Sequence record: MH560358
Source of the DNA: Escherichia virus KFS-EC
Direction: 5' to 3' (one strand)
DNA: 64,000 nucleotides
The first letter of the stretch is position 1. Every line of letters starts with the position of its first letter. The position numbers and the translations under genes are program-made. A model generated the notes under the pieces. The model searched no databases and was not told the origin of the DNA. It was given only the letters and a program-made list of their open reading frames with translations. Shown here piece after piece: positions 6,098 through 63,808 of this stretch.

Positions 6098-6116
6098 AGG
6101 CCGCGCAAAGCGGCCT
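6098..6116 (-). terminator. rho-independent terminator hairpin
   Basis: GGCCGC-loop-GCGGCC stem followed by U-rich tract on minus strand. Confidence 0.55.
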
Positions 6117-6123
6117 ATGTTGA

Positions 6124-6450: not shown

Positions 6451-6464
6451 AATTAATTCCTCTG

Positions 6465-7457
6465 TTAGTAATGGCTAAAACCTTCGGTTACATCTTCAAC
6501 CACATAGTAACGATGACAGCGCATTTTGGCATTCGCATAATCTTTCGGAATACTTACAACATGACGCGGATCAACTTTACATTTAATGATTCGGCCTCTT
6601 CCACCGCCATAGTGCGGAATATAGTGTTTCGCTGCAACGTGGAGGCCATTAGAGCAAGTGCGATCATCATCTGGGTCCACGTCTTTACGCTTCATTTTAA
6701 CCGTGCGCCCTGGGCTATTATCAAACGTATGCGTAAAGAAATCTTTATAATCAACATCAACACGTTTCCATGCATAGAAACAACCATCTTCCCCGATCTC
6801 AATGTCGTTGTGCTCTAAGAAGTCAAACAGACGATCTACGGCCTTACGGCTAGGGTTTTTCTTGCACTTCTCAAAGAAGTTCAGATAGTGCGTATATGGC
6901 TTATTCTCTTTAATCGACTCCACAACTCGACGAGTCAGATTATTATCAAGAACAATATTATGATAATACACAATACCATTTTCGATACGGAAAGCGCCGT
7001 GATAATATACTTCAACCGCTTTCTTAATGTCAATCAGCGTAATTGCTTTAATAAAATCATTCTGCTTAACCGCTTCCAGTGCTTCATTAAAGTTAACATG
7101 TGATGGATCAGCAGTATAAACAATGTCACCACATGTAATAGTAATAAACTTAGTTGAGGCTATGGCTACGATTTTTGAGGAAGTAGTCACGGGCTTTTTT
7201 GCGCGTTCACCGCCTTTTCCTTTACTGGTTTTACGGCGTGCTTTACGTTTTTCTAGTGCCTTGCGACCTTCCGCTACTGCGTCTTTCTGAATCAGTAATA
7301 CGCGGGAAGCAGTACGACGAGATACACCAAATGCTGCCGCAAGTGCTTCGCGGGTAGTAAACTTACCTTCGCCCCACTGTTTAGCCAGTTTGATTTGTTT
7401 TTCAGAATCCAGGCATTGAACGTTACGGTCAGAGACGGTGATTTTTGCTTTAGTCAT
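6465..7457 (-). CDS. rIIB: RIIB (rapid-lysis / membrane integrity protector B)
   Basis: C-terminal two-thirds closely matches T4 rIIB as recalled (SRLFDFL, TFDNSPG, HPR.VVSIP.DY.DAKMR); N-terminal HTH. Confidence 0.85.
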   Translation of the reverse strand: MTKAKITVSDRNVQCLDSEKQIKLAKQWGEGKFTTREALAAAFGVSRRTASRVLLIQKDAVAEGRKALEKRKARRKTSKGKGGERAKKPVTTSSKIVAIASTKFITITCGDIVYTADPSHVNFNEALEAVKQNDFIKAITLIDIKKAVEVYYHGAFRIENGIVYYHNIVLDNNLTRRVVESIKENKPYTHYLNFFEKCKKNPSRKAVDRLFDFLEHNDIEIGEDGCFYAWKRVDVDYKDFFTHTFDNSPGRTVKMKRKDVDPDDDRTCSNGLHVAAKHYIPHYGGGRGRIIKCKVDPRHVVSIPKDYANAKMRCHRYYVVEDVTEGFSHY

Positions 7458-7519
7458 AGTATTCATTCCTCTATTAGTTGGGCGACTATCGCCGCCCGAT
7501 TCACATCATTATACCAGAA

Positions 7520-7651
7520 TTATTTTGCTTCGACAACCTTGCGGATTGTGCGGTCTGATACATTATAGATTCGTGCCAGTTCGCCTTTAGTCAAGCCGCG
7601 AGCGTATTGTTTACGGATGGTTTCTTTCTGGATAGCGGTCAGTTTAGTCAT
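7520..7651 (-). CDS. 43-aa helix-turn-helix mini-protein resembling the rIIB N-terminal domain
   Basis: hand-translated MTKLTAIQKETIRKQYARGLTKGELARIYNVSDRTIRKVVEAK; AGAGGTGA SD overlapping rIIA stop; not in ORF track (below 60 aa). Confidence 0.45.
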   Translation of the reverse strand: MTKLTAIQKETIRKQYARGLTKGELARIYNVSDRTIRKVVEAK

Positions 7652-7662
7652 AATATCACCTC

Positions 7663-9771
7663 TTAAAATTTAACATTCTTAACCAGTTTCATAAAGTCTT
7701 GTGCGCGTTTGTCATTATGCAGAATACGATACCAGTTATCTACAATATCATACAGTAACGGGCTATTCTCTTTAAACTTCGCACAAACTGCTTTAATTCG
7801 TTCGTTTGCTACCGTGAATTTTTCATCACAAATCTTTTTAGTTTCTTCGTCCATAATCCAACGAGTACGAAGGAGTAACTTGGAAACCTCTTTATTATAA
7901 TGACGACCGTACAGTCTGTCAATAAATTCTGGAACACAGCGTTCTAGTTCATCGTCATGAAACAACATAGTGATCACACCCAGATATTCGCCATACCCCA
8001 GATGATTGGTCTTAACCTTCTTAGCCAGACCAGCCAGCTTACCGCAAACAAATTCTAGCGCACATTCCAATTGTTCGTCAACGAGATATTTTTGTGTCTC
8101 GTTTCGAGTAATAATATACTTTGTTACCCCGAAGTAGTCAAGCGCCGTGTGTAATGTATTTTCACTATGGATCGATTTACGACTACGGCTTTCGAATGCA
8201 TCACCTACGCGGAACATGTGCAAGCCTGATAACTCGCGAATCTCTGCCGCTTTCATGTGATGGCTGGTTTTATGCCAATTGTCACCAATCTTTTCCATAA
8301 TATACACGTTAGGCAGCTTGGGAGTAGCTTCACGTTGTGTACGCTCGGTCTTTTCCGGTTTAACTGCTTTAGCACGCAGATCATCGGCCTCAGACACTTT
8401 AATCACGGTCATTTCAGAATCATCATAATACTGTTTGATGTACTCGAAAGTCTCCATATGTTTTTCGTTGTTCTGACGGAACACCAGTACCTTTTTATTG
8501 ATTCCGTATTCCTGGACCATGCCGTTAAGAGTCAGTGCACGCAGTTTCGGTTTATCTGTATCATCAATAAGACACGTAATATCTTCTTTATGCATCCATA
8601 CAAAATGCGTAATGTTGTATTGACTGCTAACGAAAGCAGGGCGCAATTTACTGATTGTGTGACGAGTACGATACAGAGTATACACCTGACCTTCTACGTC
8701 ATTTGGCGAATCTTTACCAGCATTCACAAACTTATTATAGATTGCTACCGGATCATCCCACTGACCGATCTTACCCATCTTGCTAATAATATTGCGTTGC
8801 GTCGATGAATACTCGCTCATAAATTGAGCAAGTTTACGCTCTGTTTTAATGTTGGCGATCTTTTCTTTAACCTTTTCCAACATCATTTCATTGATTTCTG
8901 CAATGCGTTTTTCGATGTTCGCTTTAGTCTCAATTGACAAGTGAACTTCTTCACGCGATGGCATAAGGTCCAGATCACCCAACTCAAAATTAATGTAAAT
9001 GGTCTGGTGCTGGCGGTTTACAGCTTCTAACCATGTTCCGCGAACATATTCATACGGGATCGGATACTGGATCTTACCCATGATTGCATATACTACATAG
9101 GAATCGTTATCACGCCCATTACAAACATAATAATTATCAAAGCTAGGGAAATAATTAATTTCGATTGCATTGATATTAGGTTTGTGTTCCCCAAAATGAC
9201 GCAGTACAAATTGCGCTTCTCGATGCCATGTCTGAATGTCTTTTTCTTTCACCGGAATAGTGATTTTCAGACCATTGTCTTCATAGGTCGGTTCGTCGAA
9301 AATCTGCACCATTTTCGGCATCGAGTTTTGCACAAATGCCGTAAAGCCATAAGCGCGACCATTGTAATAGTTTACGATTGTAAAGGTGTCGGTATAGCTA
9401 TAAGCAGATTTCGCACCTAAACCAAAAGATCCGATATAATCATTAGTCTGGTCTTTTGTTGATTCAAAGTAAACCGTAAACAGTTGTTCTAATTCTTTCT
9501 TAGACGGAATACCAGTACCATAATCACGCACAGAAAAATACGGTTCGATTGCAGTCGGTAAATGAATATCAAACGGACGATCTAAGGTTCCGGCTTCTTT
9601 GTGAGTGTCGGTAGCATTGCACGAATACTCACGGACGCAAGCACGCTCACAATATTGATAAGTGTTCTTAGAAAGCACCATAAAAGCCTTGCTACTTGCT
9701 TTCAGTGAAAAATCAACCGCACCGCTCAAGTCACTGCCAAATACTTCTTCATTATCAATATGCATTTTCAT
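7663..9771 (-). CDS. rIIA: RIIA (rapid-lysis protector A, GHKL-type ATPase fold)
   Basis: matches T4 rIIA as recalled (DNG.GI, GSFGLGAKS, FELGDLD motifs); 702 aa. Confidence 0.9.
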   Translation of the reverse strand: MKMHIDNEEVFGSDLSGAVDFSLKASSKAFMVLSKNTYQYCERACVREYSCNATDTHKEAGTLDRPFDIHLPTAIEPYFSVRDYGTGIPSKKELEQLFTVYFESTKDQTNDYIGSFGLGAKSAYSYTDTFTIVNYYNGRAYGFTAFVQNSMPKMVQIFDEPTYEDNGLKITIPVKEKDIQTWHREAQFVLRHFGEHKPNINAIEINYFPSFDNYYVCNGRDNDSYVVYAIMGKIQYPIPYEYVRGTWLEAVNRQHQTIYINFELGDLDLMPSREEVHLSIETKANIEKRIAEINEMMLEKVKEKIANIKTERKLAQFMSEYSSTQRNIISKMGKIGQWDDPVAIYNKFVNAGKDSPNDVEGQVYTLYRTRHTISKLRPAFVSSQYNITHFVWMHKEDITCLIDDTDKPKLRALTLNGMVQEYGINKKVLVFRQNNEKHMETFEYIKQYYDDSEMTVIKVSEADDLRAKAVKPEKTERTQREATPKLPNVYIMEKIGDNWHKTSHHMKAAEIRELSGLHMFRVGDAFESRSRKSIHSENTLHTALDYFGVTKYIITRNETQKYLVDEQLECALEFVCGKLAGLAKKVKTNHLGYGEYLGVITMLFHDDELERCVPEFIDRLYGRHYNKEVSKLLLRTRWIMDEETKKICDEKFTVANERIKAVCAKFKENSPLLYDIVDNWYRILHNDKRAQDFMKLVKNVKF

Positions 9772-19297: not shown

Positions 19298-19501
19298 TTA
19301 TAGCTCAAATTTCATGAAAGTTCCTACACTTTCATTTTCATTCTCTCCGTTTTCATCTAAGCCAAATTTGTAGACACTACCATCTGGCGATGTGTAAGAG
19401 AATACACGAAAACGGCCTACCGAATCAAGTTCTGTAAATTCATATTCTTTTCCGGCTTCAAAAAGTGCATATGTGCTTTTAAGACATTTCATCGTAATCA
19501 T
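19298..19501 (-). CDS. hypothetical small protein (67 aa), 61.1 position
   Basis: ATG start; coupled to next small ORF. Confidence 0.45.
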   Translation of the reverse strand: MITMKCLKSTYALFEAGKEYEFTELDSVGRFRVFSYTSPDGSVYKFGLDENGENENESVGTFMKFEL

Positions 19502-20229: not shown

Positions 20230-20865
20230 TCAAGCGAATGTAGAAAGCAAATGTTTTGTTTCTTTCAGTTGTCGTTCAAGATCTTTGCGTTTCTCTTTAA
20301 GTTGCATTTTAGCATTATTTCGCTGTTTTTCAACATCTTTATCAATACTCTTATTCCAGTTATCAATATCAGAATAAGTTGGCATACCCAATTCTAGACC
20401 TAATGCGGTTGGATACAAGGTAACAGTCCATAAACCGCTAATCTTCTTAAATAGGTCGGGGTGTAGTGTACTATCTACATCTTCCGGTGTCAACTCTTTT
20501 TCTTCTTTCAGTGGTGGGATCTCGTCATATGGTTCCAGTGCATTTACTTTAATGTCAGATACCTCATCAAAGAATCCGCGTACATCCGCAGGAAATACAC
20601 AAGCAATTTCCCAACCGTGATCACGCAGAGAAGTAATATTTTTCACTCCCCCACCATGTGTGATGATTGATGTGACATTGCCATCAAGGTCCACCGAATT
20701 TACGAGAAATGGCTTATCGTCTGTCAGATCATTATAAAACTGTGCTTCGGCTGTAGTCATCTCCAGAAACAGATCTCGGATCGGACGACCATCAGGTGCG
20801 TTACCTTCCTTGAGAGTATAAAAGCGACTTACGATCCATTTTGGCGGTAAAGCATTAGCGATCAT
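20230..20865 (-). CDS. hypothetical protein (211 aa), T4 61.2 position
   Basis: ATG with AGGAGA SD; position-based only. Confidence 0.55.
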   Translation of the reverse strand: MIANALPPKWIVSRFYTLKEGNAPDGRPIRDLFLEMTTAEAQFYNDLTDDKPFLVNSVDLDGNVTSIITHGGGVKNITSLRDHGWEIACVFPADVRGFFDEVSDIKVNALEPYDEIPPLKEEKELTPEDVDSTLHPDLFKKISGLWTVTLYPTALGLELGMPTYSDIDNWNKSIDKDVEKQRNNAKMQLKEKRKDLERQLKETKHLLSTFA

Positions 20866-20915
20866 GTTATATCTCCTATCAAATCATTCACCAGCGCCCC
20901 GCAGGGCGCATTTTA

Positions 20916-36570: not shown

Positions 36571-38040
36571 CTATTCCCCATTGCCATTATACTTTCTTTG
36601 CTTAGTTATCCACACTCTAACCATCTCTACTGATTCACCGTCAGACGGATCAAGAGTTTTTCCCTTTTTCTTCATGCGGTACTTAAATCCGTTAAATCTT
36701 GCATTCTCTTGCTCGTTAAAATCGAACATCTTTTTAAATGATTTTCGCCCTTTACGCTCACCACATTCTAGCGGAATCATTCGGTCTGTTATTACATTGG
36801 CATTAGGTAGAAACGTTTTTAGATAATCTACCAACGCCCAATCAGGAACATATAGATTAACATTCTCCTTGCTCTCGTTGTCTCTCAGGTTACAACGCAA
36901 ACATAATTGAAATGCTGGTTCCAGATAATCAGACACATGACGCGCTTTCAAAAACTCATTTGTCGGGAGATCACAACTATTAGCAAGACCTTTTAAAATA
37001 TCAATCTCCCATCGTTGAGGGTTAAAGCTGAACATCACAGCAACATTTTTATGATGAATGTAAGAGTTAAGACCATAAGACCCGTAAGGTATCCGCTCGC
37101 CAATACCATTTGTGCACGCTTCACGGTCCCGATTCACGGTATAAATGAAGTCATCACCACATTCATTTTTAACCATATCAACAAGACGTTCAAAGGTATT
37201 GTTTGTTTCTGACTGGTGACGCGACCATCGTTCGGAGTCCGTCATAAGGATGATGTTAACTCTATCTGTATTTTTATACTCTTTGAAATATAGTCTGGAT
37301 TCTAGCGCACTCGGAACAAAATCGCAATTTGCATAGTATCGTAGATACTTCCCGCTATATGTATCAAAGAGATTTGCACATGCTATCGTAACCTTTTTAA
37401 AGTCTCCCCACGTACCGTGTTTGTTATCGTTCAAGAAAACAATTTTCGACCCATTCTTCCGGTGTCCTTCGTTATGTTTTACCATAACGTTGATTTTCTT
37501 CTCTAATAACGCCTCATAAAGCCCTCTAAGAGAAGAATCGATCATATCAGTACCATCCTTTGCACTTTCTATCTTTTCTTTGATAGCGGCCTTCTCAGAG
37601 TCTTTTAGAACTAAGTTCTGTAGGCATTCCGATTCGTCGGCGATTGGTTCGCAATGCTTCGTGATAAGTTCAAGATTAGACTTAAACGGATACTCATTAA
37701 ATTCAACCAGTTGAGGAACTTCATCAATGTAAAGAGCATATTCACCAAACATTTTTGAACGTTCCATATTAGATAACGCTGTATGTGTAATGAATATCAC
37801 ATCAGCACCGTCTTTAACTGATTGCATTATCGACGCTTGCACTGTCTTAAGGCTTCTTAGTCTGGTGCTATCAATCAAGACAGCACGACCGCCCATTCTT
37901 TTAAACTTATTGTAAGATTGTTCACTTAAAACACGAGATGGCGAAGCAATAACCGCTTTTTCTTTTGTCTCTAGGACGTGGGAAAGTATAGCATCAGTTT
38001 TCCCCGCCGCTGGCAATGCGATTAATGTTTCAATCTTCAT
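36571..38040 (-). CDS. uncharacterised P-loop NTPase (489 aa), helicase-like Walker A/B
   Basis: Walker A ALPAAGKTD near N-terminus and Walker B LYIDEV about 95 aa later; no match to a T4 protein I can recall; occupies the alpha-gt locus between 55 and nrdH. Confidence 0.6.
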   Translation of the reverse strand: MKIETLIALPAAGKTDAILSHVLETKEKAVIASPSRVLSEQSYNKFKRMGGRAVLIDSTRLRSLKTVQASIMQSVKDGADVIFITHTALSNMERSKMFGEYALYIDEVPQLVEFNEYPFKSNLELITKHCEPIADESECLQNLVLKDSEKAAIKEKIESAKDGTDMIDSSLRGLYEALLEKKINVMVKHNEGHRKNGSKIVFLNDNKHGTWGDFKKVTIACANLFDTYSGKYLRYYANCDFVPSALESRLYFKEYKNTDRVNIILMTDSERWSRHQSETNNTFERLVDMVKNECGDDFIYTVNRDREACTNGIGERIPYGSYGLNSYIHHKNVAVMFSFNPQRWEIDILKGLANSCDLPTNEFLKARHVSDYLEPAFQLCLRCNLRDNESKENVNLYVPDWALVDYLKTFLPNANVITDRMIPLECGERKGRKSFKKMFDFNEQENARFNGFKYRMKKKGKTLDPSDGESVEMVRVWITKQRKYNGNGE

Positions 38041-38507: not shown

Positions 38508-38766
38508 AAATCGCCCTCAGTTCTTTATAGCCTCCAATGTGCTCGTTGTCAATGAATATCTGGGGGTATACAAACCGGAGGCTCTTTGAGTTTAGCCTCC
38601 CCGCCAGTTCTTCAATCATATCACGGTCGGGAATAATGTCAACCCCGACCTGCTTGAATACTGGTTTAAGTGTATACGGAATACCCAGATCATCCAGTAG
38701 CTTCATTGCACTAATACAACCATAACAATGATAAGCCTCTTTCGGTATACCGTATATCTCGATCAT
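38497..38766 (-). CDS. nrdH: glutaredoxin-like protein (NrdH position)
   Basis: redox motif CYGC in thioredoxin-fold context (IEIYG...CYGC...P.IFID...IGGY..L). Confidence 0.7.
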   Translation of the reverse strand: MIEIYGIPKEAYHCYGCISAMKLLDDLGIPYTLKPVFKQVGVDIIPDRDMIEELAGRLNSKSLRFVYPQIFIDNEHIGGYKELRAIYDY

Positions 38767-39239
38767 TTCTCAGCCTTTAATCTTTCTAGTTCTTCTTCCA
38801 GTTCCTTGATCCGTTGGTCACGTTCAAAGTCACGCTGCAACTTAATGGCGAATACTCGTTTAAACTGATTGTAATCATCGATTTTAAACACTTCTTCTTC
38901 GCCATAGCGACGCACAGAAACTTCGTAGTTATTGAAGAATTGTTGCATCATTGCTTCGGATGATAGCTCTGCTGATACCACTTTAAAATATTGATCTTCT
39001 GTAGGCGAAAACCAATTACAAGCATAAAGATAAACCTTTTCATTGTCTGGACACTGGTAAGCCTTACCATCGATTTCAATCACAGAAACATATTCAGGTA
39101 TACTAGATGAATCAATAGCTAAGACTTTAAACGCACGGTCCCCGATAAACTCGGAGATCACACGATTCGCATCACTGGTTGCAAATGCTTTACGCGCTTG
39201 TTCGTTTTTCCACTGATAGGTCATACCAACAACAAACAT
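38763..39239 (-). CDS. repeat-domain family protein (1 copy of W..GKTY.WKD-type domain + coiled coil)
   Basis: shares domain with 39241-40065, 40078-40542 and 44948-46126; internal ATG with GAGG SD. Confidence 0.55.
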   Translation of the reverse strand: MFVVGMTYQWKNEQARKAFATSDANRVISEFIGDRAFKVLAIDSSSIPEYVSVIEIDGKAYQCPDNEKVYLYACNWFSPTEDQYFKVVSAELSSEAMMQQFFNNYEVSVRRYGEEEVFKIDDYNQFKRVFAIKLQRDFERDQRIKELEEELERLKAEK

Positions 39240-39240
39240 A

Positions 39241-40065
39241 TTACCAACCTCGCTCTTTACCAATCAAAAATTCAACTTCACGACGTTTAATGTCTTCTTG
39301 AAGGTCTTTAATCTTCTGGCGATCTTGCATTATTTCGTCCATCTTGTCAAGTGCTGCGATGAAATCATCGAAACGTTCAAAGGTTTTACCTTCATTTGCT
39401 TCGCCAAATTTAACCATTGTCAGGCCGTAACGACTACTAAACAGACGTTTCAACTGTCCAACGATTTTAGAATCAGTGGTTATAACTTCCAATTCTTCTA
39501 CTTCACGAAAGAATTTTCTATCAGAATCAATAAACCAGCTAGTTCCTTTATGGTCTCTATCTTCGGTTGCGCTCATTAGAGTATGGTCTTTACCATCAAT
39601 TTCAATTACATCAATTTGCCCACATGGACTAACATTTTTAACAGTAAAAGGTCTATAATTTATTGCTCGTGCAATAACATAATTAAGGTTAGATACGTTT
39701 TCAGCATAATGGCAGAAGTCGGTCATAGCATTCGCATCTTTCCAAGTATAAGTTTTACCAACTTCCCATTTCTGGGGAACTTCTTCAACTTCACGAAAGA
39801 ATTTTCTATCGAATGGACTAAAGAAATATGTTGCAGTCCAAATGTCTTTTCCTGTAGCAGTTTTCGCCGTATGATAAACACCGTCTAGCTCTATTGCATT
39901 AATCCAACCGTTGCCATCAATCTCGATGATGGTAAATGGCTTGTCACCAATAGCTGCACTAATATCGCTGTTAAGTGGAGAAAGAACACCTTCTCCGTTA
40001 GTAATAAACTCAGTTTTAGCGTTTTCGTCTTTCCAGGTGTAAGTTTTACCAATTTCCCATTTCAT
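39241..40065 (-). CDS. repeat-domain family protein (2 tandem copies of W.GKTYTWKD domain)
   Basis: internal duplication MKWEIGKTYTWKDENA / QKWEVGKTYTWKDANA, each followed by VIEIDG and DRKFFREVEE. Confidence 0.6.
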   Translation of the reverse strand: MKWEIGKTYTWKDENAKTEFITNGEGVLSPLNSDISAAIGDKPFTIIEIDGNGWINAIELDGVYHTAKTATGKDIWTATYFFSPFDRKFFREVEEVPQKWEVGKTYTWKDANAMTDFCHYAENVSNLNYVIARAINYRPFTVKNVSPCGQIDVIEIDGKDHTLMSATEDRDHKGTSWFIDSDRKFFREVEELEVITTDSKIVGQLKRLFSSRYGLTMVKFGEANEGKTFERFDDFIAALDKMDEIMQDRQKIKDLQEDIKRREVEFLIGKERGW

Positions 40066-40077
40066 AATATATTCCCC

Positions 40078-40542
40078 TTAACCGATTTTATCAAGTTCGT
40101 TTAATGCTTTCTCTGCTTCCTGTATAGCTTGCACCCTTTCCGGCATTTTGTCAAGAAAATCTTTCAACTCTTCAAAACTGGAGATATGACGCAAGGCGTT
40201 AGCACCGATAGCCGCATGTGATTTGCATTCAAAGCGGATTTTATAATTATCCATCGCCAACTTGAGAAGATCAATTAATTTAGATTCTTCTGGAATAATA
40301 ATTTCTTCAAATCTGCTACGGTCATGATCCAGAAACCAACAAGATAGACCTACATCGGTTGAACTCATATAAGTTCCATCATGAAGATAAACAGACCGCA
40401 CGTATCCTTTTTTCGCATCAACCGACGCAACTTTAAACGGTAATCTCAGATATTTCAAATAATCAACATCATACCATTTAAAAAATTGGTTTGCATCTTT
40501 TACATCTTTCCACGCATAGGTCTTACCAGCTTCCCATTCCAT
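40078..40542 (-). CDS. repeat-domain family protein (1 copy)
   Basis: MEWEAGKTYAWKD motif; coiled-coil C-terminus; track start GTG. Confidence 0.55.
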   Translation of the reverse strand: MEWEAGKTYAWKDVKDANQFFKWYDVDYLKYLRLPFKVASVDAKKGYVRSVYLHDGTYMSSTDVGLSCWFLDHDRSRFEEIIIPEESKLIDLLKLAMDNYKIRFECKSHAAIGANALRHISSFEELKDFLDKMPERVQAIQEAEKALNELDKIG

Positions 40543-40552
40543 AATAATCACC

Positions 40553-41056
40553 TCAAATAATTTTCACTGGAATACTATTAACAATCTTGTATTGTACTTG
40601 ATTGTCAGACCCCCGCCACGGCTTCTTCGTTGGCATATCTTTAATATAACGCCCATCGATGAACACGTCAACTGATTCTACAATTTTTCTTTGCTCATCA
40701 TTCAATTGGTCAAGGGTATAACCAGACCATAGCCAAATATCTTTATTTGGCATCCATGATTTTACTTCATCGATGATCCGCTGTACACCCTTTAAATTGC
40801 GTTTATACAGTGGATCGCCACCTAAGAATGTTAGCCCCTGAATAAAATCAGGTCTAAGCAGATCCAGAATCAATCCCATTGTATCATCGGTGAATGGTTC
40901 CCCGTTCTTAGGATTGAGTAGGCTAGCATTAAAGCAACCATCACATGCGTGTGAACATCCGGTAACGTAAAGGGAGACTCTCACTCCCTCACCGTTAACC
41001 ATATCACAATCTTTAATATCGGCATAGCGTAGTTTGCCGTATGTATCAGAACTCAT
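40553..41056 (-). CDS. nrdG: anaerobic ribonucleotide reductase activating enzyme NrdG (radical SAM)
   Basis: CxxxCxxC radical-SAM cluster motif (GCSHACDGC), GGDPL, WRGSDNQ; adjacent to nrdD. Confidence 0.88.
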   Translation of the reverse strand: MSSDTYGKLRYADIKDCDMVNGEGVRVSLYVTGCSHACDGCFNASLLNPKNGEPFTDDTMGLILDLLRPDFIQGLTFLGGDPLYKRNLKGVQRIIDEVKSWMPNKDIWLWSGYTLDQLNDEQRKIVESVDVFIDGRYIKDMPTKKPWRGSDNQVQYKIVNSIPVKII

Positions 41057-41198
41057 ATTCAATTACCCCGAACTCGTTTACAATCTGCGCTTTATAGTAA
41101 CCACCGCGAGATGCCAATAGATAAGCTGGGCTTAGGTATTCGTATTCACGGATTTCTACTTGTGCGTTTTCAGTTTCCCAAATCAGTAAAGTCCACAT
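41046..41198 (-). CDS. small early protein (50 aa)
   Basis: ATG after AGGAGAATCAAAT leader downstream of promoter; track N-terminus is translated promoter. Confidence 0.45.
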   Translation of the reverse strand: MWTLLIWETENAQVEIREYEYLSPAYLLASRGGYYKAQIVNEFGVIEYEF

Positions 41199-41240
41199 AT
41201 TTGATTCTCCTGTAAAGTTGTATCTCGTCTTGATGTGTGT

Positions 41241-41270
41241 AGTATAGGGGATCTCGCGATCCCCGTCAAG
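41241..41270 (-). promoter_or_regulatory. early promoter with palindromic spacer GGGGATCTCGCGATCCCC
   Basis: -35 TTGACG at 41265-41270, -10 TATACT at 41241-41246; near-identical to copies at 2610-2638 and 50058-50086. Confidence 0.55.
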
Positions 41271-41273
41271 CAT

Positions 41274-41834
41274 TTATTTAAATTTTTCGAGAGATTTCAA
41301 CCACAGGCGGCCTGGTAGGTACTCTCCGGCAAACATGAAATTGTCATCTGGATAAGAACGCAGCATATTCAAAATAAACTTCCGGCACTCTTCGTAATCT
41401 TTACGTTTAAGATAAATCACATTCTCGCCAGTACCGATCACACCTTTGCTGTATCCATGCTCTTTACGCACAGACCATTGTACAGTATCCTTTTTAACCC
41501 GAATCACAACAGGTTCCCAATACCCAGCGCATCCGGCTACACCACACGAACAGGTGAGGAAGTATTGACCTTTTGCTTTGTTTTCCTCCCACCCGATATT
41601 AACCGGATGCCATTCGTGAAACAAGGCTAAAGCATCGTGTGTCTCTTCGATCTGTTTATTGTCAATTCTTACCGTAACCATCCATACAGGGATCTTATTT
41701 GTTGGTTCATCATCATAACATGAATCATCATAACATGAATCATCATCAATATGTTCTAATGTCATATCAACATTAATTGATTTTGCGTGTTCCAGGTGTC
41801 GTTGTGCTTTACGTTTACGGTTTAATGATTTCAT
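41274..41834 (-). CDS. hypothetical protein (186 aa), Cys-rich
   Basis: internal ATG with GAGGTGA SD; contains the 15-bp tandem repeat. Confidence 0.55.
   Translation of the reverse strand: MKSLNRKRKAQRHLEHAKSINVDMTLEHIDDDSCYDDSCYDDEPTNKIPVWMVTVRIDNKQIEETHDALALFHEWHPVNIGWEENKAKGQYFLTCSCGVAGCAGYWEPVVIRVKKDTVQWSVRKEHGYSKGVIGTGENVIYLKRKDYEECRKFILNMLRSYPDDNFMFAGEYLPGRLWLKSLEKFK
41711..41750 (-). repeat. 15-bp direct tandem repeat (catcataacatgaat x2 plus partial) inside a coding region
   Basis: encodes DDSCY-DDSCY-DD in ORF 41274-41834. Confidence 0.6.
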
Positions 41835-41851
41835 AGTCACCTCACATTATT

Positions 41852-42391
41852 TCAAAGATCGCGATATTGTACATTATGAAAATGAGAACTTGCATTACCA
41901 ATATTGTAGATAACAAATTCTTCATCCGGCGCTTGCGCTACAAATTGAGTATGAGCAACCGCTACGACTTTAAAAATACGATCCGTGATCTTGTGCTTAA
42001 TTTCTGCCCCTACTTCCATAGGAACATATTCATTTGTTTCTGTTTCAGTCGCAAAACAGCCATCTTCTTCATAAGCACGAACAAATCGGTCGCAATCAGT
42101 ACGCTTAACAAATTCAAGAGTATATAATTCTCGTGAATTGTCGGTATAGACCAATACAGAATTATTATGATAGCGAATCACATACAGGTTATTATCATCG
42201 TCAATTACGCAAAAGCTACGGATTCCTTCGCCTTGACTCCAGCAGATATTAACCACCGTTCCTCTAATAAAAAAACTTTCCTTTAAATTAAAACTAGTCA
42301 ATGTGCTAGCGTGCATTTTAACAACAACACCATCACCAATTTCCAGTTTACGAAGTTTAACTTCTTTGCTCAGTACACAAAACATCATCAT
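41852..42391 (-). CDS. hypothetical protein (179 aa)
   Basis: ATG triplet with AGAGAGGA SD downstream of promoter at 42420-42448. Confidence 0.55.
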   Translation of the reverse strand: MMMFCVLSKEVKLRKLEIGDGVVVKMHASTLTSFNLKESFFIRGTVVNICWSQGEGIRSFCVIDDDNNLYVIRYHNNSVLVYTDNSRELYTLEFVKRTDCDRFVRAYEEDGCFATETETNEYVPMEVGAEIKHKITDRIFKVVAVAHTQFVAQAPDEEFVIYNIGNASSHFHNVQYRDL

Positions 42392-42419
42392 ATTGTCCTC
42401 TCTTTGTTTCGATGTGAGC

Positions 42420-42448
42420 ATTATACATGAGCTAATCATGTTGTCAAC
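42420..42448 (-). promoter_or_regulatory. early promoter (TTGACA-17-TATAAT)
   Basis: -35 at 42443-42448, -10 at 42420-42425; directly follows the nrdD terminator. Confidence 0.6.
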
Positions 42449-42463
42449 ACCCCAAAACGAAAA

Positions 42464-42485
42464 AGCCGACCCTTTCGGATCGGCT
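42464..42485 (-). terminator. rho-independent terminator after nrdD
   Basis: AGCCGAUCC-GAAA-GGGUCGGCU hairpin followed by U-run. Confidence 0.6.
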
Positions 42486-42490
42486 AAAAA

Positions 42491-44353
42491 TTACATGTGC
42501 TTAACGCGGTTTACCATCTCGGAGTGTTTCCCGTGGTTAAATGGACGCAGATCAACAGATCCAAGATATCCACTAACGCGACGGATAACATTCATCTTTT
42601 CCAGATTGTCATTTCCGCAATCAGGGCAAACAAAACCAGACTCGGTCGCTCTCATTTCCTTATTAGATCCGCATACATGACATACATCAGAAGGAGTATT
42701 AACACCGAAGTAGTGCAATTTATCCATTGCATAGTCTACTACAGTTTCAAGACCTTTCAGGTTGTTTTTCATGTCTGGGAACTCAACATAAGAGATCATG
42801 CCACCGGACGCCAGCCAGTGATAATCTTTCTCAAAGTCGATTTTCTCAAATGGAGTGACTTTCCGGTCTACGTCAAGGTGGAATGAGTTGGTGTACCAGT
42901 CTTTATCGGTAGCACCCTTAACAATACCAAATTGCTCTCTGTCCAGTCGATTAAATCGATAGCAAAGGCTCTCGGCTGGCGTACCGTAAAGACTAAACCC
43001 AAGTCCGGTTTCATCCTTCCATTTTTCAGTATAATGACGCAAGATCTTAAGAATATGTTTACCGTATCGCTGCGCATCTTCCGAATCAAACGGATGAACA
43101 CCAAACAGGACGCTCAATACCTCATGTAAACCAATATATCCAATAGAGATACTAGCGCGACCATCTTTCAACACTTCCAAAATTTCATCGTTTTGATGAA
43201 TACGGAAAAATGCACCTTCGGTATACAGTACAGGAGCAACATTGGCTTTAGCGCCTTTTAAAGCGTCTACGCGACTCATGAGCGCATCAAAACAAATAGG
43301 CATACGATTAGCTAGCTCTTGTTCGAATAGCTCAATTCTGCGCATTACAGACGCTTTACCAGCACGACGCGCGGCAATAAGAGCAATACGCGGAAGATTC
43401 AGAGTCACAACACCCAAGTTATTACGTCCGTCTAATACTTCTTCGCCTTTCTCATTATGCCACACACCCAGGAAGCTACGACAACCCATCGGGCTAACCG
43501 GAACACTAGATCCGGTGATACTACGGTTATTCTTCGCAGAGATATAATCAGGGTAAAGACGCTTACTAGAACATTCCAATGCAAGTTGCTTAATGTCGTA
43601 GTTCGGATCTTCCGGTTTAAGGTTTAATCCTTCTTCTAAGAACATCACCAGCTTAGGAAACACCGGAGTGATACCATCTTTACCTAAACCTTTAGTTCGA
43701 ACTTTCAGGATCGCTTTCTGAATCAGTTTTTCTTCCCAGCTAGTCCCCATACCAAATGTTAAAGTCACAAAAGGTGTTTGACCGTTGGTGGAGAACAAAG
43801 TGTTGATTTCATATTCCAACGCTTGATACCCGTCTAGCGTTTCTTTTTCTGTCTTCTCTTGTGCATAGAGAGTATCCGCTTTGATTCCGTAGGTTTCGGC
43901 ATCAGCAAGGTGTTTATGATATGTTTTCTCAACGTATGGCGCTAAAACCTGATCGATGTTTGCAATTGTGGTCCCGCCATATTGATGACTTGCCACCTGT
44001 GCGATAATTTGAGCGGTTACAGCACAAGCAACGCCGATTGATTTCGGACTTTCGATTTGTGCGCTACCCAATTTAAAACCATTCTCTAACATGTCTTTGA
44101 GATTAACAAGACAGCAGTTAGTAAACGGCATAGCGGGTGCATAATCCATATCATGATAATGAATGTCACCGTCTACATGCGCTTTATAGATGTGCTCAGG
44201 TAACACGGTTTTAGCAATCTGTTTAGACACAGCACCAGCAATCAGATCTCGACGTGTCGGGAATGTTCGCGCGTCTTTGTTCGCGTTCTCTTTGCTTACT
44301 TCGTTTTCTTTACCCGTTGCGATCTCTGTAATGTCTTTGATTAGTTTTTCCAT
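42491..44353 (-). CDS. nrdD: anaerobic ribonucleoside-triphosphate reductase NrdD (glycyl radical enzyme)
   Basis: collinear with T4 NrdD as recalled; C-terminal Zn ribbon and glycyl radical motif (CHVCG...CPDCG...IRRVSGYLG). Confidence 0.93.
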   Translation of the reverse strand: MEKLIKDITEIATGKENEVSKENANKDARTFPTRRDLIAGAVSKQIAKTVLPEHIYKAHVDGDIHYHDMDYAPAMPFTNCCLVNLKDMLENGFKLGSAQIESPKSIGVACAVTAQIIAQVASHQYGGTTIANIDQVLAPYVEKTYHKHLADAETYGIKADTLYAQEKTEKETLDGYQALEYEINTLFSTNGQTPFVTLTFGMGTSWEEKLIQKAILKVRTKGLGKDGITPVFPKLVMFLEEGLNLKPEDPNYDIKQLALECSSKRLYPDYISAKNNRSITGSSVPVSPMGCRSFLGVWHNEKGEEVLDGRNNLGVVTLNLPRIALIAARRAGKASVMRRIELFEQELANRMPICFDALMSRVDALKGAKANVAPVLYTEGAFFRIHQNDEILEVLKDGRASISIGYIGLHEVLSVLFGVHPFDSEDAQRYGKHILKILRHYTEKWKDETGLGFSLYGTPAESLCYRFNRLDREQFGIVKGATDKDWYTNSFHLDVDRKVTPFEKIDFEKDYHWLASGGMISYVEFPDMKNNLKGLETVVDYAMDKLHYFGVNTPSDVCHVCGSNKEMRATESGFVCPDCGNDNLEKMNVIRRVSGYLGSVDLRPFNHGKHSEMVNRVKHM

Positions 44354-44370
44354 TGTATCACCTATGAAAA

Positions 44371-44388
44371 AGCGGGATTTCTCCCGCT
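44371..44388 (-). terminator. rho-independent terminator
   Basis: AGCGGGA-loop-UCCCGCU stem followed by U5. Confidence 0.55.
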
Positions 44389-44397
44389 CGTTGATAG

Positions 44398-44892
44398 TTA
44401 TTTTACCAGTTCTGCTAATTCTTTTTCCGCCGCTTCCAGTTCAGCTTTCAGTTGTTTGATCTCTTGTCGCTTCTTATTAGCGGCTTCCTGCTTACTATTT
44501 CGGATAATCTGATCTAGATATGAATCCCACTCCTGAATATTTTTGATAATGTAACCGTCAACATTAATTGGTCGTAGATTCAGTACAGCTTCCAGTTTAG
44601 TCGCAAAAACTTTAATTGCTGGGGTGAAGTATTCATATTCGTTATCTTCAAACCAATAACCTAGACTTGCATTCTCAATACGAAGACGAAGTTTAAGATC
44701 AAGGTCTTTATCTTCGGTGTAAAGATCTTTCACCTGCCCCATCGAGCTAACAACAACTTTAAAACGAATTTTATCTACACCGCCAAAAACATCTTCAAGA
44801 ATATCAGCAATTGAGCTATTAGCGCAAGATTGGTCGCTGAATGCGTCAAGATTTTCTTTAGTTACAGTATACCAAATATCTTGTTTCCACAT
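44398..44892 (-). CDS. hypothetical protein (164 aa) with coiled-coil C-terminus
   Basis: ATG with GAGGA SD; C-terminal heptad-like KQLKAELEAAEKELAELVK. Confidence 0.55.
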   Translation of the reverse strand: MWKQDIWYTVTKENLDAFSDQSCANSSIADILEDVFGGVDKIRFKVVVSSMGQVKDLYTEDKDLDLKLRLRIENASLGYWFEDNEYEYFTPAIKVFATKLEAVLNLRPINVDGYIIKNIQEWDSYLDQIIRNSKQEAANKKRQEIKQLKAELEAAEKELAELVK

Positions 44893-44947
44893 AATATAAT
44901 CCTCTCGTTGTTAAGTTGGGAGTATTATAGCATACTCCCTTCGCATG

Positions 44948-46126
44948 TCAAGCACTAACTTTTTTCTTTACTGCTTTCACCTTCTGGCGAATTGCTCGAA
45001 TCTCTTCGATCTCTTTTTCAGTCTCTTTAACAATTTCTTTGCGATTCTGAATATCTGTATCTAGATTCTCATCGAGTTTAGGAAGCATGTCGATCAAGAA
45101 CTTTTTAAAGTCTTTCAGGTTTCGGATAACAGCACCTTCACCCATTACCGCAACACCCACACCATCCGGCAGATCACCAAACAGCTTAACCAGTTCAGAC
45201 AGATGATCATAGTCTTCTAATGCTTCCTCCGGTTCAGATGGCAGTTCAACAAAGTTATAACGTTCATCATTGCTGATCAAGTGATACCAGCAAAGCCCGA
45301 AAGATTTCGGTGTATATTCTACACCATCAATTTCAACCGCGTCAACACTTCCATAATCATCTACTTTAGTTACCTTAAATCCTTGTCCCAGCTTTTGAAC
45401 AATTTCAACAACATGACTTGATACAGTTTCAGCGGTAAACCAATATGGCAAATTATGCTGATTTGGCTTGTAGCGTTCACCTACTTTAAATCTCTGACCA
45501 TCCGCTTGCATAGCATGAAATTGTTGTTTCGTGATTTCCGCGAAGTATTCAAATTCGCTACCGTCAAACAAGCAATTCCATTGACCACAAAAACGGTCCG
45601 CCTTGACGGTTTCACCTTTCGCGGTGATCATGGTAGCTGATCCGTGCAATTCTTCTTCAACTAAAAAGCCATATTCGACAAAATCAACAAGTTTCATAGC
45701 TTCTTTGTGATCTGGATCATGCTCTCCCCAGAATCTCTTAAATTCTTGCAAACCTTCTGGTGTAAACGAATAACATTTACCTTTTTCAAAGTAAGTCGGC
45801 ATTGCATCCTCTTTCTTGTTCATCGCTTCGTATGCCTCTTTTGATATACGTTTAAAGTATTTGCGCTCATTGTGCATAATCATAGTAGACCAATAATAAA
45901 CGATATCCTCAGCGGAATAAACTACATCTCCAGCTTCAATAGTAATAACATGACCGTGGTCATCTTTTTCTAATACTTTAAAGCCCTTTTCGACGATTTC
46001 AGCAACCCGAATATGACCACGGCGCGAAGCATCGGTCAGAATAATTGAATAGCGAGAAAAGTCTAGAAACTCATCTTTACCGCCTTCACGGAATGCATAG
46101 TAATGACCTTCAAAGAATTTAGCCAT
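44948..46126 (-). CDS. repeat-domain family protein (392 aa, three degenerate domain copies)
   Basis: contains GKCYSF, VGERYKP and EIDGVEYTP variants of the domain seen in 38763-40542; coiled-coil C-terminus. Confidence 0.6.
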   Translation of the reverse strand: MAKFFEGHYYAFREGGKDEFLDFSRYSIILTDASRRGHIRVAEIVEKGFKVLEKDDHGHVITIEAGDVVYSAEDIVYYWSTMIMHNERKYFKRISKEAYEAMNKKEDAMPTYFEKGKCYSFTPEGLQEFKRFWGEHDPDHKEAMKLVDFVEYGFLVEEELHGSATMITAKGETVKADRFCGQWNCLFDGSEFEYFAEITKQQFHAMQADGQRFKVGERYKPNQHNLPYWFTAETVSSHVVEIVQKLGQGFKVTKVDDYGSVDAVEIDGVEYTPKSFGLCWYHLISNDERYNFVELPSEPEEALEDYDHLSELVKLFGDLPDGVGVAVMGEGAVIRNLKDFKKFLIDMLPKLDENLDTDIQNRKEIVKETEKEIEEIRAIRQKVKAVKKKVSA

Positions 46127-46189
46127 AATAGAATCCTCTCGTTGTTTATATGGGAGTATCTTACTACTCCCATTTCATGCTGTCAACTA

Positions 46190-59374: not shown

Positions 59375-59434
59375 TTTAATAATCCTTTGTTGTTTCGATG
59401 GGGGTATATTACTACCCCCGATCATGTATGTCAA

Positions 59435-63195: not shown

Positions 63196-63534
63196 TCACA
63201 CCTTTAAAGTCATAGACGCATAAACATTAATGCCAGGCCAGTTAGGATCGCAATTATACTCAACATCCCACAAATAAAGCGGTTTAGATGTATCAGCCAA
63301 GTTTTTAAAATCTTCTACCCACATTTCAAGGCTATATGATGGATAAACTAGGCTATCATATCCGCCGTAACGTTGGCCTACTGGTCGGTCAGTAAAAACT
63401 ACATCAAGATCCGGTAATTCTTTTTCAAGGATAACCGCCAGCGCATAAATCAGACGGTCTTCCTTGTTACGCTGCCGTAGGACCGTTGTCAGTTGGTTTT
63501 TCTGGTTCACTAGCAAGCACCTCCACATTTTCAC
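63196..63534 (-). CDS. hypothetical protein (112 aa; start uncertain, overlaps upstream ORF)
   Basis: GTG/ATG start inside 3' end of 63467-63787; possible frameshift relationship. Confidence 0.35.
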   Translation of the reverse strand: MKMWRCLLVNQKNQLTTVLRQRNKEDRLIYALAVILEKELPDLDVVFTDRPVGQRYGGYDSLVYPSYSLEMWVEDFKNLADTSKPLYLWDVEYNCDPNWPGINVYASMTLKV

Positions 63535-63787
63535 AGAATGAAATTTTCACAGACACAATTTTACCATAAGTGAAGAATGAATATACATTATCGAGATATT
63601 CAACGTCACCTACAATCACATCAAACTGCGGATCAGCCACTGCCGCAACATATTCTACCAGTTCATCAAGAGAATGCAACTTAATTTCATCAATTCGGCT
63701 GTATTTGGTTGCATCTTTGATTTTAAAACCACGTTCTTTCAGCTTATCAATTAGAATTTCACGCGGAGTTTCAAACAGTTTGCTCAT
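63467..63787 (-). CDS. hypothetical protein (106 aa)
   Basis: ATG with GAGGATTATATT RBS. Confidence 0.5.
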   Translation of the reverse strand: MSKLFETPREILIDKLKERGFKIKDATKYSRIDEIKLHSLDELVEYVAAVADPQFDVIVGDVEYLDNVYSFFTYGKIVSVKISFCENVEVLASEPEKPTDNGPTAA

Positions 63788-63808
63788 AATATAATCCTCA
63801 CATTAAAT

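What the first reader, a model, noticed from the sequence alone, without database searches (positions are those of the whole stretch)
38763..46126. Repeat-domain protein family (W..GKTY.WKD ... IEIDG ... DRKFFREVEE) in four genes flanking nrdG and nrdD
ORFs 38763-39239, 39241-40065 (two tandem domain copies), 40078-40542 and 44948-46126 (about three degenerate copies) share a roughly 90-aa domain, usually followed by a coiled-coil C-terminus. The genes sit on both sides of the anaerobic RNR genes nrdG/nrdD. ORF 44398-44892 has a similar coiled-coil tail but no clear copy of the domain. Intragenic and intergenic duplication of a single domain at this scale is unusual in a compact phage genome and suggests a diversifying family.
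Basis: seen in the sequence. Interest (0 to 1): 0.55.

Follow-up and report, generated by a model that had tools for sequence, protein, structure and literature searches.

The report
Expanded GoF/Frd.2-like phage protein family
The repeated ~90-residue domain is real: this RB49-like coliphage carries six genes (nine domain copies) of the recently described T4 GoF/Frd.2 small beta-barrel family, whose domains and copy number are reshuffled by recombination but whose function is still unknown.

The parts
38763..39239 (-). Gene A, 158 aa. One barrel domain (residues 1-92, 38964-39239) followed by a C-terminal part ending in a charged helix (38766-38963).
   Evidence: Domain E=1.7e-19 with the independent profile; phrog_5347 1e-59. 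Among orthologues the N-domain is 57-67% identical and the C-terminal part 85-89%.
39241..40065 (-). Gene B, 274 aa. Two tandem barrels, B1 (39778-40065) and B2 (39496-39777), followed by a C-terminal part (39244-39495).
   Evidence: Domains at 4e-19 and 7.5e-18. In the AF2 model both barrels have pLDDT ~90 and the C-terminal part 54-66, with a long helix at residues 232-271. One-domain alleles (178-185 aa) and alleles with a different B2 (42-47% identical) exist, with C-terminal parts 88-100% identical, mostly 95% or more.
40078..40542 (-). Gene C, 154 aa. One barrel (40291-40542) followed by a C-terminal part (40081-40290). Its first codons are chimeric, taken from the lost paralogue p051.
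   Evidence: Domain 1.4e-11. AF2: barrel pLDDT ~90; C-terminal part alpha-beta-beta-alpha-alpha at pLDDT 52-74. Junction alignment.
40529..40535 (-). Crossover zone of the deletion that removed paralogue p051, which lies between nrdG and C in RB49.
   Evidence: The window sequence equals the RB49 nrdG-p051 junction through ATGGAATGGGAAG, then equals RB49 gene C. 28 of the 57 Krischvirus records show the ~530-bp p051 insertion at this junction. The other 29 match only the nrdG side plus the first ~26-30 nt of the gene start, which p051 and C share, so p051 is inferred there rather than seen.
44398..44892 (-). Gene D, 164 aa. One divergent barrel (44605-44892) followed by a helical, charged C-terminal part.
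   Evidence: Domain 1.6e-9 and 36 bits against at most 7 bits for shuffles; phrog_15067, with weaker hits to phrog_3710 and phrog_622. A perfect sigma-70 consensus promoter with a stem-loop lies at 44951..44924.
44948..46126 (-). Gene E, 392 aa (RB49 'frd.2'). Three barrels, E1 (45827-46126), E2 (45518-45805) and E3 (45233-45502), followed by a C-terminal part (44951-45232).
   Evidence: Domains at 7e-11, 3.9e-9 and 6.3e-11; phrog_8944 'goF mRNA metabolism modulator' 7e-213. Orthologues are all 391-392 aa.
46151..46186 (-). PeSL-type early promoter cassette upstream of E: TTGACA, 17-nt spacer, TAAGAT, with the stem-loop GGGAGTA..TACTCCC over the -10 box. It is chimeric and marks the deletion of paralogues p059 and p060; the crossover zone is 46161-46171.
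   Evidence: The 5' half is identical to the RB49 gene49-p060 cassette and the 3' half to the RB49 p059-E cassette. None of 57 records has this contiguous junction. The cassette type fits the description in PMC2839356. Further copies were found.
20230..20865 (-). Gene F, 211 aa (homologue of RB49 Dc2, just downstream of gene 41). One barrel (20548-20865), then an acidic linker and a charged C-terminal helix. This sixth family member lies outside the reported range.
   Evidence: Domain 1e-6 and 27 bits against at most 3.5 bits for shuffles; phrog_16187; BFVD hit 'Dc2 [phage ECD7]' from the B model.
40553..44353 (-). Intervening genes that are not family members: nrdG (40553-41056), a DUF7170 ORF, two ORFs of unknown function, and nrdD (42491-44353).
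   Evidence: None of them matches the domain profile.

Best explanation
These are six early genes of the GoF/Frd.2 family of T4-type phages, expanded in Krischvirus.

Shown here: each protein is modular. It has one to three copies of a ~90-aa SH3/LSm-like beta-barrel (order beta1, two helices, beta2-beta3-beta4, short helix, beta5). The core is made of invariant aromatic residues (Y, F, F, F), and the surface segments vary. An acidic linker follows, then a conserved C-terminal part that ends in a long charged amphipathic helix.

Inferred: the barrels are recognition modules and the C-terminal part is a constant self-association module. Tandem barrels plus oligomerisation would then make a multivalent, non-enzymatic binder produced early in infection. 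The most likely target class is a host or phage component that decides the fate of phage mRNA, either the RNA itself or a decay or termination factor. This rests on T4 GoF: the suppressor changes D25Y and G84R lie in exactly the segments that vary naturally here, and D25Y stabilises gene 41 mRNA post-transcriptionally.

Shown here: the family evolves by recombination. Barrel-coding cassettes are exchanged between phages while the C-terminal parts and flanking genes stay nearly identical. Genes are lost or gained by crossover between PeSL promoter cassettes and by unequal crossover between the conserved 5' ends of neighbouring paralogues. This phage lost three members in that way.
For: Family identity: PHROG cross-hits put the window proteins, T4 GoF and T4 Frd.2 in phrog_622 and related goF families. 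hhalign of the window-only profile against a GoF+Frd.2 profile gives 96.2%, E 2.6e-9, over 83 columns. A GoF orthologue (P0173) was recovered by the window-only profile from 1.84 billion representatives.

Not an enzyme: the invariant columns are Y and F.

Variable surface, constant tail: the variable positions of A and B cluster in helix 1 and the loop after it, the beta2-beta3 hairpin tip, and the beta4-beta5 connector; the C-terminal part is almost invariant. GoF D25 aligns to the hypervariable loop. GoF G84 aligns to the x of the conserved E/D-R-x-F-F motif, where 5 of the 12 Krischvirus domains carry K or R, as the G84R suppressor does.

Cassette exchange: window versus L007 nucleotide identity is nrdG 99, C 98, B1 98, B2 56, B C-terminal part 93, A N-domain 69, A C-terminal part 85, nrdH 99. 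N-domain dS is 0.9-1.6, against 0.03-0.43 in nrdD/nrdG.

Gene loss and chimeras; chimera P0129; PeSL mechanism in RB49/phi1.

Early expression: consensus sigma-70 promoters lie upstream of E, D and B. GoF is an abundant early protein and runs as monomer plus dimer.
Confidence: 0.55

Rival explanations
1. They are true Hfq/LSm-type RNA chaperones. The barrels would assemble into rings and bind RNA directly, stabilising or pairing phage transcripts. This is the working hypothesis of Kim et al. 2025.
For: [quoted passage not shown] The plasmid RNA-binding protein Rop also rescues T4 on rho(nusD) hosts.
Confidence: 0.2
2. They are counter-defence or host-takeover decoys. The variable barrels would bind polymorphic host proteins such as defence-system sensors, nucleases or RNA polymerase/Rho partners. 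The expansion, cassette swapping and presence/absence polymorphism would reflect an arms race.
For: Variability is concentrated in the surface loops over a conserved core, and ancient divergent N-domain alleles are maintained and exchanged. Genes are gained and lost between near-identical phages. The genes have early promoters in a hyperplastic region, and the T4 homologues are dispensable in the laboratory. SH3, Tudor and KOW barrels are typically protein-binding; CarD, PcrA and NusG use them on RNA polymerase or Rho.
Against: There is no hit to any PADLOC model and no known anti-defence family. Gene-wide dN/dS is below 1. The GoF pull-down from uninfected E. coli K-12 found no partner, and no host-range data exist. 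The only genetics in the family points to mRNA and Rho rather than defence.
Confidence: 0.2
3. They are accessory factors of the anaerobic ribonucleotide reductase, as their position on both sides of nrdG/nrdD might suggest.
For: Only the gene order in this window and in RB49-like phages.
Against: The homologues T4 GoF (next to gene 39) and Frd.2 (next to frd/32), and the sixth member here (next to gene 41), lie at unrelated loci. The genes have their own promoter cassettes, and a terminator follows nrdD. Members are lost without any change to nrdD/nrdG. There are no conserved Cys, His or other catalytic residues.
Confidence: 0.02
4. The shared motifs are chance or low-complexity similarity with no common ancestry.
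For: Pairwise BLAST between some members is weak (A-C 0.21, D-E 0.11-0.54), and Pfam finds nothing.
Against: The independent profile gives E-values of 1e-6 to 4e-19 over the full domain length. Shuffles reach at most 10 bits against 27-67 bits for the real sequences. The two AF2 models give the same fold for B1, B2 and C.
Confidence: 0.01

Closest known systems
T4 GoF (ComC-alpha) and T4 Frd.2, the 'LSm-like fold' family of Kim et al. 2025 (PMC12152347); PHROG phrog_622; Pfam PF03197 FRD2 for the Frd.2 branch
   Same: Homologous N-terminal ~90-aa barrel (hhalign 96%, E 2.6e-9; PHROG cross-hits). The same conserved Y/F/F/F core and E-x-x-F-F-x-E-V ending. An acidic linker followed by a small C-terminal part. 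Acidic proteins of T4-type phages, encoded in dispensable or hyperplastic regions and driven by early promoters.
   Different: T4 has single-barrel proteins at three scattered loci. Here there are 6 genes (9 in RB49), mostly clustered, with 1-3 barrels per protein and a longer C-terminal part ending in a charged helix. The host phage is a Krischvirus, outside the Tevenvirinae. Pfam FRD2 does not detect the window proteins. The paper does not mention RB49, tandem domains or cassette exchange.
T4 MotB.1
   Same: Kim et al. predict the same barrel, and the hydrophobic pattern can be aligned. There is a weak hit to phrog_622 (E 0.0013).
   Different: Profile-profile similarity to the window family is not significant here (hhalign 7%). 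The C-terminal part is different.
FeoA and the SH3-like domain of DtxR/IdeR; other small barrels (CarD/CdnL RID, PcrA/UvrD Tudor, NusG/Spt5 KOW, SPbeta YorP)
Hfq / Sm-LSm proteins
   Same: A five-stranded bent antiparallel sheet of similar size. One mutant family member, GoF D25Y, affects RNA stability.
PeSL (promoter-early stem-loop) cassettes of RB49/phi1 (Arbiol et al. 2010, PMC2839356; PMC4122927)
   Same: The cassettes flanking E, D and the lost p059/p060 consist of a consensus sigma-70 promoter with a stem-loop over the -10 box. The deletion junction is a chimeric cassette, as in the published PeSL excision model.
   Different: The PeSL papers treat the flanked ORFs as unrelated 'ORFans'. 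Here the cargo genes are paralogues of one family, and a second route, unequal crossover within the coding 5' ends of paralogues, also removes genes.

Membership tests
GoF/Frd.2(/MotB.1) phage 'LSm-like fold' family (Kim et al. 2025) | Sequence-profile homology of the N-terminal domain to T4 GoF/Frd.2 | tested here: met
   hhalign A2 vs A7 gives 96.2%, E 2.6e-9, 83 columns. phrog_622, which holds both T4 proteins full-length, is hit by B (6e-19), E (8e-20), A (6e-7), C (5e-3) and D (8e-3). GoF hits phrog_5347 (the family of A/B/C) at 6.5e-7.
GoF/Frd.2(/MotB.1) phage 'LSm-like fold' family (Kim et al. 2025) | N-terminal bent five-stranded antiparallel beta-sheet/barrel of ~85-90 aa | tested here: met
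GoF/Frd.2(/MotB.1) phage 'LSm-like fold' family (Kim et al. 2025) | Flexible linker to a C-terminal domain of variable structure | tested here: met
   Acidic linkers of low pLDDT (B residues 191-200) precede a helical/beta C-terminal part.
GoF/Frd.2(/MotB.1) phage 'LSm-like fold' family (Kim et al. 2025) | Early-expressed, dispensable gene of a T4-type phage | tested here: inconclusive
   Consensus sigma-70/PeSL promoters lie upstream of E, D and B. Natural loss of three members shows those three are dispensable. No expression data exist for this phage, and no promoter was found directly upstream of F.
GoF/Frd.2(/MotB.1) phage 'LSm-like fold' family (Kim et al. 2025) | Effect on mRNA level or stability (known only for the GoF D25Y mutant) | not testable with these tools
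   This needs reporter or half-life assays. The wild-type T4 proteins themselves show little effect.
GoF/Frd.2(/MotB.1) phage 'LSm-like fold' family (Kim et al. 2025) | Relationship to the MotB.1 branch | tested here: not met
   hhalign A2 vs A8 gives 7% probability. The window proteins belong with the GoF/Frd.2 branch only.
Sm/LSm/Hfq superfamily proper | Sm1/Sm2 sequence motifs or a match to the Pfam LSM/Hfq models | tested here: not met
   No such Pfam hit at E<=1 for any member or for T4 GoF, Frd.2 or MotB.1.
Sm/LSm/Hfq superfamily proper | N-terminal helix followed by five strands; closest structural neighbours are Sm/Hfq | tested here: not met
Sm/LSm/Hfq superfamily proper | Ring oligomer that binds RNA | not testable with these tools
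   Only monomer models could be made. Kim et al. obtained no confident multimers.
FeoA / DtxR-type SH3-like domain (Pfam FeoA) | Sequence membership in the Pfam FeoA model | tested here: not met
PeSL promoter-early stem-loop cassette (Arbiol et al. 2010) | Intergenic sigma-70 consensus promoter combined with a stem-loop placed between or over the -35/-10 boxes, followed by the Shine-Dalgarno sequence and start codon of an ORF in a hyperplastic region | tested here: met
   TTGACA-17-TAAGAT with GGGAGTA/TACTCCC over the -10 box at 46151-46186. An analogous 12/12 promoter with a stem lies at 44924-44951. There are four copies of the stem-loop motif in the window against 0.01 expected. Definition.
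PeSL promoter-early stem-loop cassette (Arbiol et al. 2010) | Mediates deletion or insertion of flanked ORFs, leaving a chimeric cassette | tested here: met
   The window cassette is the left half of the RB49 gene49-p060 cassette joined to the right half of the RB49 p059-E cassette, with p059 and p060 missing.

The most novel reading that the evidence does not exclude
The Krischvirus GoF-like genes would form a recombination-driven specificity system. A constant, self-associating C-terminal stalk would carry interchangeable SH3-like 'warhead' barrels, one to three per chain, whose variable loops are tuned to polymorphic host targets. Those loops are the same face that is hit by the T4 goF suppressor mutations. 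Promoter cassettes and the conserved 5' and 3' ends of the barrel would serve as built-in crossover sites that let phages swap, stack, delete and hybridise warheads. If so, the family would be a modular phage toolkit for neutralising variable host factors such as RNA-decay, termination or defence proteins, and the natural allele series would reveal the long-sought function of GoF.
Probability: 0.2. Interest if true: 0.65.

Novelty: new member of a known kind. Interest (0 to 1): 0.38.

Why it matters
GoF (ComC-alpha) has been a genetic puzzle since the late 1970s, and its family was recognised only in 2025, with no wild-type function assigned. RB49-like phages offer a much richer natural data set than T4. 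They carry 6-9 paralogues, single, double and triple barrels, and many divergent barrel alleles on near-identical C-terminal parts and genomic backgrounds. The naturally variable segments coincide with the positions of the T4 goF suppressor mutations. That points to a candidate functional face and supplies ready-made allele swaps for experiments. The locus also gives base-level examples of how T4-type hyperplastic regions lose genes, by a PeSL crossover and by an unequal crossover between paralogues. This links the published PeSL model to a gene family rather than to unrelated ORFans. Practically, five 'hypothetical protein' genes in each Krischvirus genome can now be annotated as GoF/Frd.2-like.

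Tried and rejected
- Pfam, NCBIfam and PADLOC scans of all six proteins gave nothing meaningful. The PADLOC hits to CARF_PIN and HerA at E~1e-3 are weak, partial and judged chance.
- Pfam FRD2 matches only T4-type Frd.2.
- A profile search of PDB sequences found nothing. Foldseek against PDB had no hit below E 0.09. The afdb50 library was unavailable.
- The link to MotB.1 is not significant.
- The word-index protein search reaches only close relatives.
- The exhaustive search found only 57 clusters. About a dozen of them are long proteins (466-5094 aa) with repeated partial matches. The three I scanned are SpaA, CarboxypepD_reg and cadherin-like repeat proteins that match one beta-hairpin of the profile repeatedly, so I treat the group as spurious.
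- The coiled-coil claim is only weakly supported by the heptad test. A common origin for all C-terminal parts is not shown for D, F, p059 or the T4 proteins.
- Gene-wide dN/dS gave no evidence of positive selection. Site-level tests were not possible with the few recombining sequences in hand.
- No sigma-70 promoter was found directly upstream of F.
- ORFs 63470-63802 and 19301-19501 scored marginally (E 0.05-0.13) and were rejected as members.
- A functional tie to nrdD/nrdG was considered and rejected, as set out under the rival explanations.

Full report
**Source and gene map.** The window is 95-98% identical over the reported region to 57 Krischvirus genomes (RB49, Phi1, JSE and relatives, which are T4-type coliphages). 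Protein B is 100% identical to the KFS-EC protein. All genes in the region are on the minus strand. In transcription order they are: gene 49 (endonuclease VII), E (44948-46126), D (44398-44892), nrdD, two ORFs of unknown function, a DUF7170 ORF, nrdG, C (40078-40542), B (39241-40065), A (38763-39239) and nrdH.

**Checking the observation.** Pairwise BLAST links A, B and C clearly and E more weakly. To avoid circularity I built a profile from the N-terminal domains of 23 distant relatives and ran it against all 652 six-frame ORFs of the window. The relatives were cluster representatives at 50% identity or less, recovered from 1.84 billion proteins, and none came from this window. The profile found nine full-length copies:
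- A 1.7e-19
- B1 4e-19 and B2 7.5e-18
- C 1.4e-11
- E1 7e-11, E2 3.9e-9 and E3 6.3e-11
- D 1.6e-9
- a further gene, F, at 20230-20865, 1e-6

The next ORF scored E=0.08. Real copies score 27-67 bits, and 300 shuffles of each never exceed 10 bits. All fifteen Krischvirus and T4 domains align end to end. They share an invariant Tyr (GKTY) and Phe (pFkV), two nearly invariant Phe, and a common E/D-R-x-F-F-x-E-V ending.

D does contain the domain, and there is a sixth member 18 kb away, the homologue of RB49 'Dc2' just downstream of gene 41.

The 'coiled-coil tail' is less secure. AlphaFold predicts long terminal helices. A simple heptad test is significant only for E and C. Leave-one-out profiles support homology of the C-terminal parts only for C and E, give marginal scores for A, B and p051, and give no support for D and F. 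Full-length pairwise alignments do run through the C-terminal parts of B, C, E, p051 and p059.

**What the domain is.** PHROGs place A, B and C in phrog_5347, D in phrog_15067, F in phrog_16187 and E in phrog_8944, which is named 'goF mRNA metabolism modulator'. All of them cross-hit phrog_622, the family that contains both T4 GoF and T4 Frd.2 full-length. RefSeq already names E (RB49 'frd.2') and RB49p059 'goF mRNA metabolism modulator'. A profile of the nine window copies aligns to a GoF+Frd.2 profile with 96.2% probability, E 2.6e-9, over 83 columns. It does not align significantly to MotB.1.

The exhaustive profile search found only 57 clusters. About a dozen of these are long proteins with repeated partial matches. 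The three I scanned are Ig-like repeat proteins, so I treat that group as spurious. The remaining 45 or so clusters are small proteins of 58-392 aa, which points to a small, probably phage-restricted family. It includes double- and triple-barrel proteins elsewhere. All members are acidic (pI 4.8-5.6), and every barrel has a net negative charge.

**What is added here: expansion and architecture.** RB49 has nine family genes with twelve barrels. Eight of them lie in the nrdH-gene 49 interval, and the ninth is Dc2. No others were found in the 138 of 164 kb scanned. T4 has three single-barrel genes. Barrels are stacked once (A, C, D, F), twice (B) or three times (E) ahead of one C-terminal part.

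**What is added here: variable barrels on constant tails.** Among orthologues the N-domain is far more divergent than the C-terminal part:
- A: N-domain 57-67% identical, C-terminal part 85-89%.
- C: 47% against 93%.
- B: the B2 barrel is 42-47% identical while the C-terminal part is 90-100% identical.

At the DNA level the divergence is sharply mosaic. Window versus metagenomic relative L007 gives nrdG 99%, C 98%, B1 98%, B2 56%, B C-terminal part 93%, A N-domain 69%, A C-terminal part 85%, nrdH 99%. In 29 of the 57 database phages the 5' part of C has no megablast match at all, although the adjoining nrdG is 94-99% identical.

Synonymous divergence in the replaced barrels (dS 0.9-1.6) far exceeds that of the flanking genes (0.03-0.43). 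These are therefore old alleles moved in by recombination, not sequences that diverged rapidly in place. Gene-wide dN/dS is 0.27-0.36 for barrels, 0.08-0.13 for C-terminal parts and 0.02-0.09 for nrdD/nrdG. That shows relaxed constraint, not demonstrated positive selection.

Variable positions cluster in helix 1 and the following loop, the beta2-beta3 hairpin tip and the beta4-beta5 connector. The strands and the C-terminal part are nearly invariant. GoF D25 aligns to the hypervariable loop. GoF G84 aligns to the x of the E/D-R-x-F-F motif, where five of the twelve Krischvirus barrels naturally carry Lys or Arg, as the G84R suppressor does.

**What is added here: copy-number change with traceable junctions.** None of the 57 database genomes has the window's contiguous E-gene 49 junction, so all of them carry p059 and p060 or other sequence there. 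The ~530-bp p051 insertion between nrdG and C is seen directly in 28 of them. In the other 29 it is inferred from the conserved start of the gene that follows nrdG. The window lacks all three genes.

The p059+p060 deletion junction is a chimeric promoter cassette: TTGACA, 17 nt, TAAGAT, with the stem-loop GGGAGTA/TACTCCC over the -10 box. Its left half equals the RB49 gene49-p060 cassette and its right half equals the RB49 p059-E cassette. This is exactly the PeSL-mediated excision described for RB49/phi1 (PMC2839356).

The p051 deletion is an unequal crossover within the first 8-14 nucleotides of the coding sequences of the adjacent paralogues p051 and C. Both begin ATG-(G/A)AA-T(G/T)G-GAA-G. 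As a result the window's C starts MEWE (from p051), where RB49's C starts MKLE.

Other products of the same processes occur in metagenomes. There are one-barrel alleles of B (178-185 aa). There are B alleles with a different second barrel. There is a chimera (P0129) that fuses the first half of the p051 barrel to the end of an alternative B2 and the B C-terminal part. There is a 5'-truncated C.

**How it most likely works.** Shown: the proteins are modular, non-enzymatic and acidic. They carry a conserved hydrophobic barrel core with variable surface segments and a conserved tail. They are preceded by consensus early promoters (E, D and B). Inferred: the barrels are binding modules, the tail mediates self-association, and tandem barrels plus oligomerisation give multivalency. 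By analogy with the goF genetics, the target would be a component that controls the fate of phage mRNA.

I rate the family assignment and the evolutionary mechanism as well supported, at about 0.85-0.9. I rate the functional mechanism as weak, at about 0.35. The overall confidence is 0.55.

The rivals are as follows:
- A true Hfq-like RNA chaperone. Against it stand the acidity, the topology, the lack of Sm motifs and the inactivity of the wild-type proteins.
- A counter-defence or host-protein decoy family. It is favoured by the variability and the presence/absence pattern, but no direct evidence supports it.
- An nrd accessory role, which I reject.

**Verdict.** The feature is real and was correctly spotted, but it belongs to a family already described and partly annotated. 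The expansion, the multi-barrel architecture, the cassette-like replacement of barrels on constant tails, and the two resolved deletion junctions are, as far as the searched literature shows, not described. I classify it as a new member of a known kind, of moderate interest.

Noticed in passing
window 20230-20865 (-): A sixth member of the family (211 aa, homologue of RB49 'Dc2') lies just downstream of the gene 41 helicase, 18 kb from the reported cluster. Gene 41 mRNA is the transcript affected by the T4 GoF(D25Y) mutant, which is probably coincidence. A GC-rich hairpin, GCGCCC-CGCA-GGGCGC, sits between gene 41 and this gene at 20894-20909.
   Followed up: partly
window 2380-2400, 2884-2904, 46151-46171, 59399-59419 (-): There are four copies of the PeSL stem-loop/-10 motif GGGAGTAGTAAGATACTCCCA with at most 3 mismatches, against 0.01 expected by chance. 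They mark other potential recombination cassettes in the window.
   Followed up: partly
window 41274-41840 (-): A 188-aa ORF (phrog_8242) between nrdD and nrdG contains a direct peptide duplication, DDSCY-DDSCY. Its N-terminus is diverged relative to RB49p054 (175 aa). It has a conserved Cys-rich motif, CSCGVAGCAGYWEP. Function unknown.
   Followed up: no
window 41046-41273 (-): The DUF7170 ORF reads as 75 aa here, but its homologue is annotated as 50 aa in RB49 and JSE. The Pfam match covers only residues 26-75, so the true start is probably internal.
   Followed up: no
window 36571-38040 (-): A conserved 489-aa protein with a P-loop (ALPAAGKT), and a weak DEAD-helicase Pfam hit in relatives, lies between gene 55 and the 55.2 homologue. 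It is annotated as hypothetical in all Krischvirus records.
   Followed up: no
L002 (JSE) 5744-8366 versus window 42491-44353: JSE nrdD is split by an inserted homing-endonuclease gene. The window's nrdD is intact (620 aa).
   Followed up: no
L007 9569-9988; protein P0129: Signs of decay and hybridisation in the family appear in metagenomic relatives. One is a 5'-truncated C orthologue (139 aa, lacking beta1). The other is a 154-aa chimera that joins the first half of the p051 barrel to the end of an alternative B2 barrel and the B tail, which implies deletion of C and B1.
   Followed up: partly
window 40343-40517 (5' part of gene C): In 29 of 57 database Krischvirus genomes this segment has no megablast match, although the adjacent nrdG is 94-99% identical. 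The C barrel therefore exists in at least two deeply divergent allele classes at roughly equal frequency.
   Followed up: partly
proteins P0134, P0135, P0145, P0148, P0165, P0181: The domain profile gives multi-stretch partial hits (profile positions ~29-62) to very large proteins. The three scanned (P0135, P0165, P0181) are bacterial SpaA, CarboxypepD_reg and cadherin-like repeat proteins. These are spurious matches to a single beta-hairpin summed over repeats, and are a caution for anyone counting family members.
   Followed up: yes
literature: T4 frd.2: A CRISPRi-ART screen reports frd.2 as the only T4 fitness gene of unknown function (PMC11879866). Kim et al. 2025 find an frd.2 amber mutant plates normally. 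The discrepancy is unresolved; polar effects of dCas13d are one possibility.
   Followed up: no
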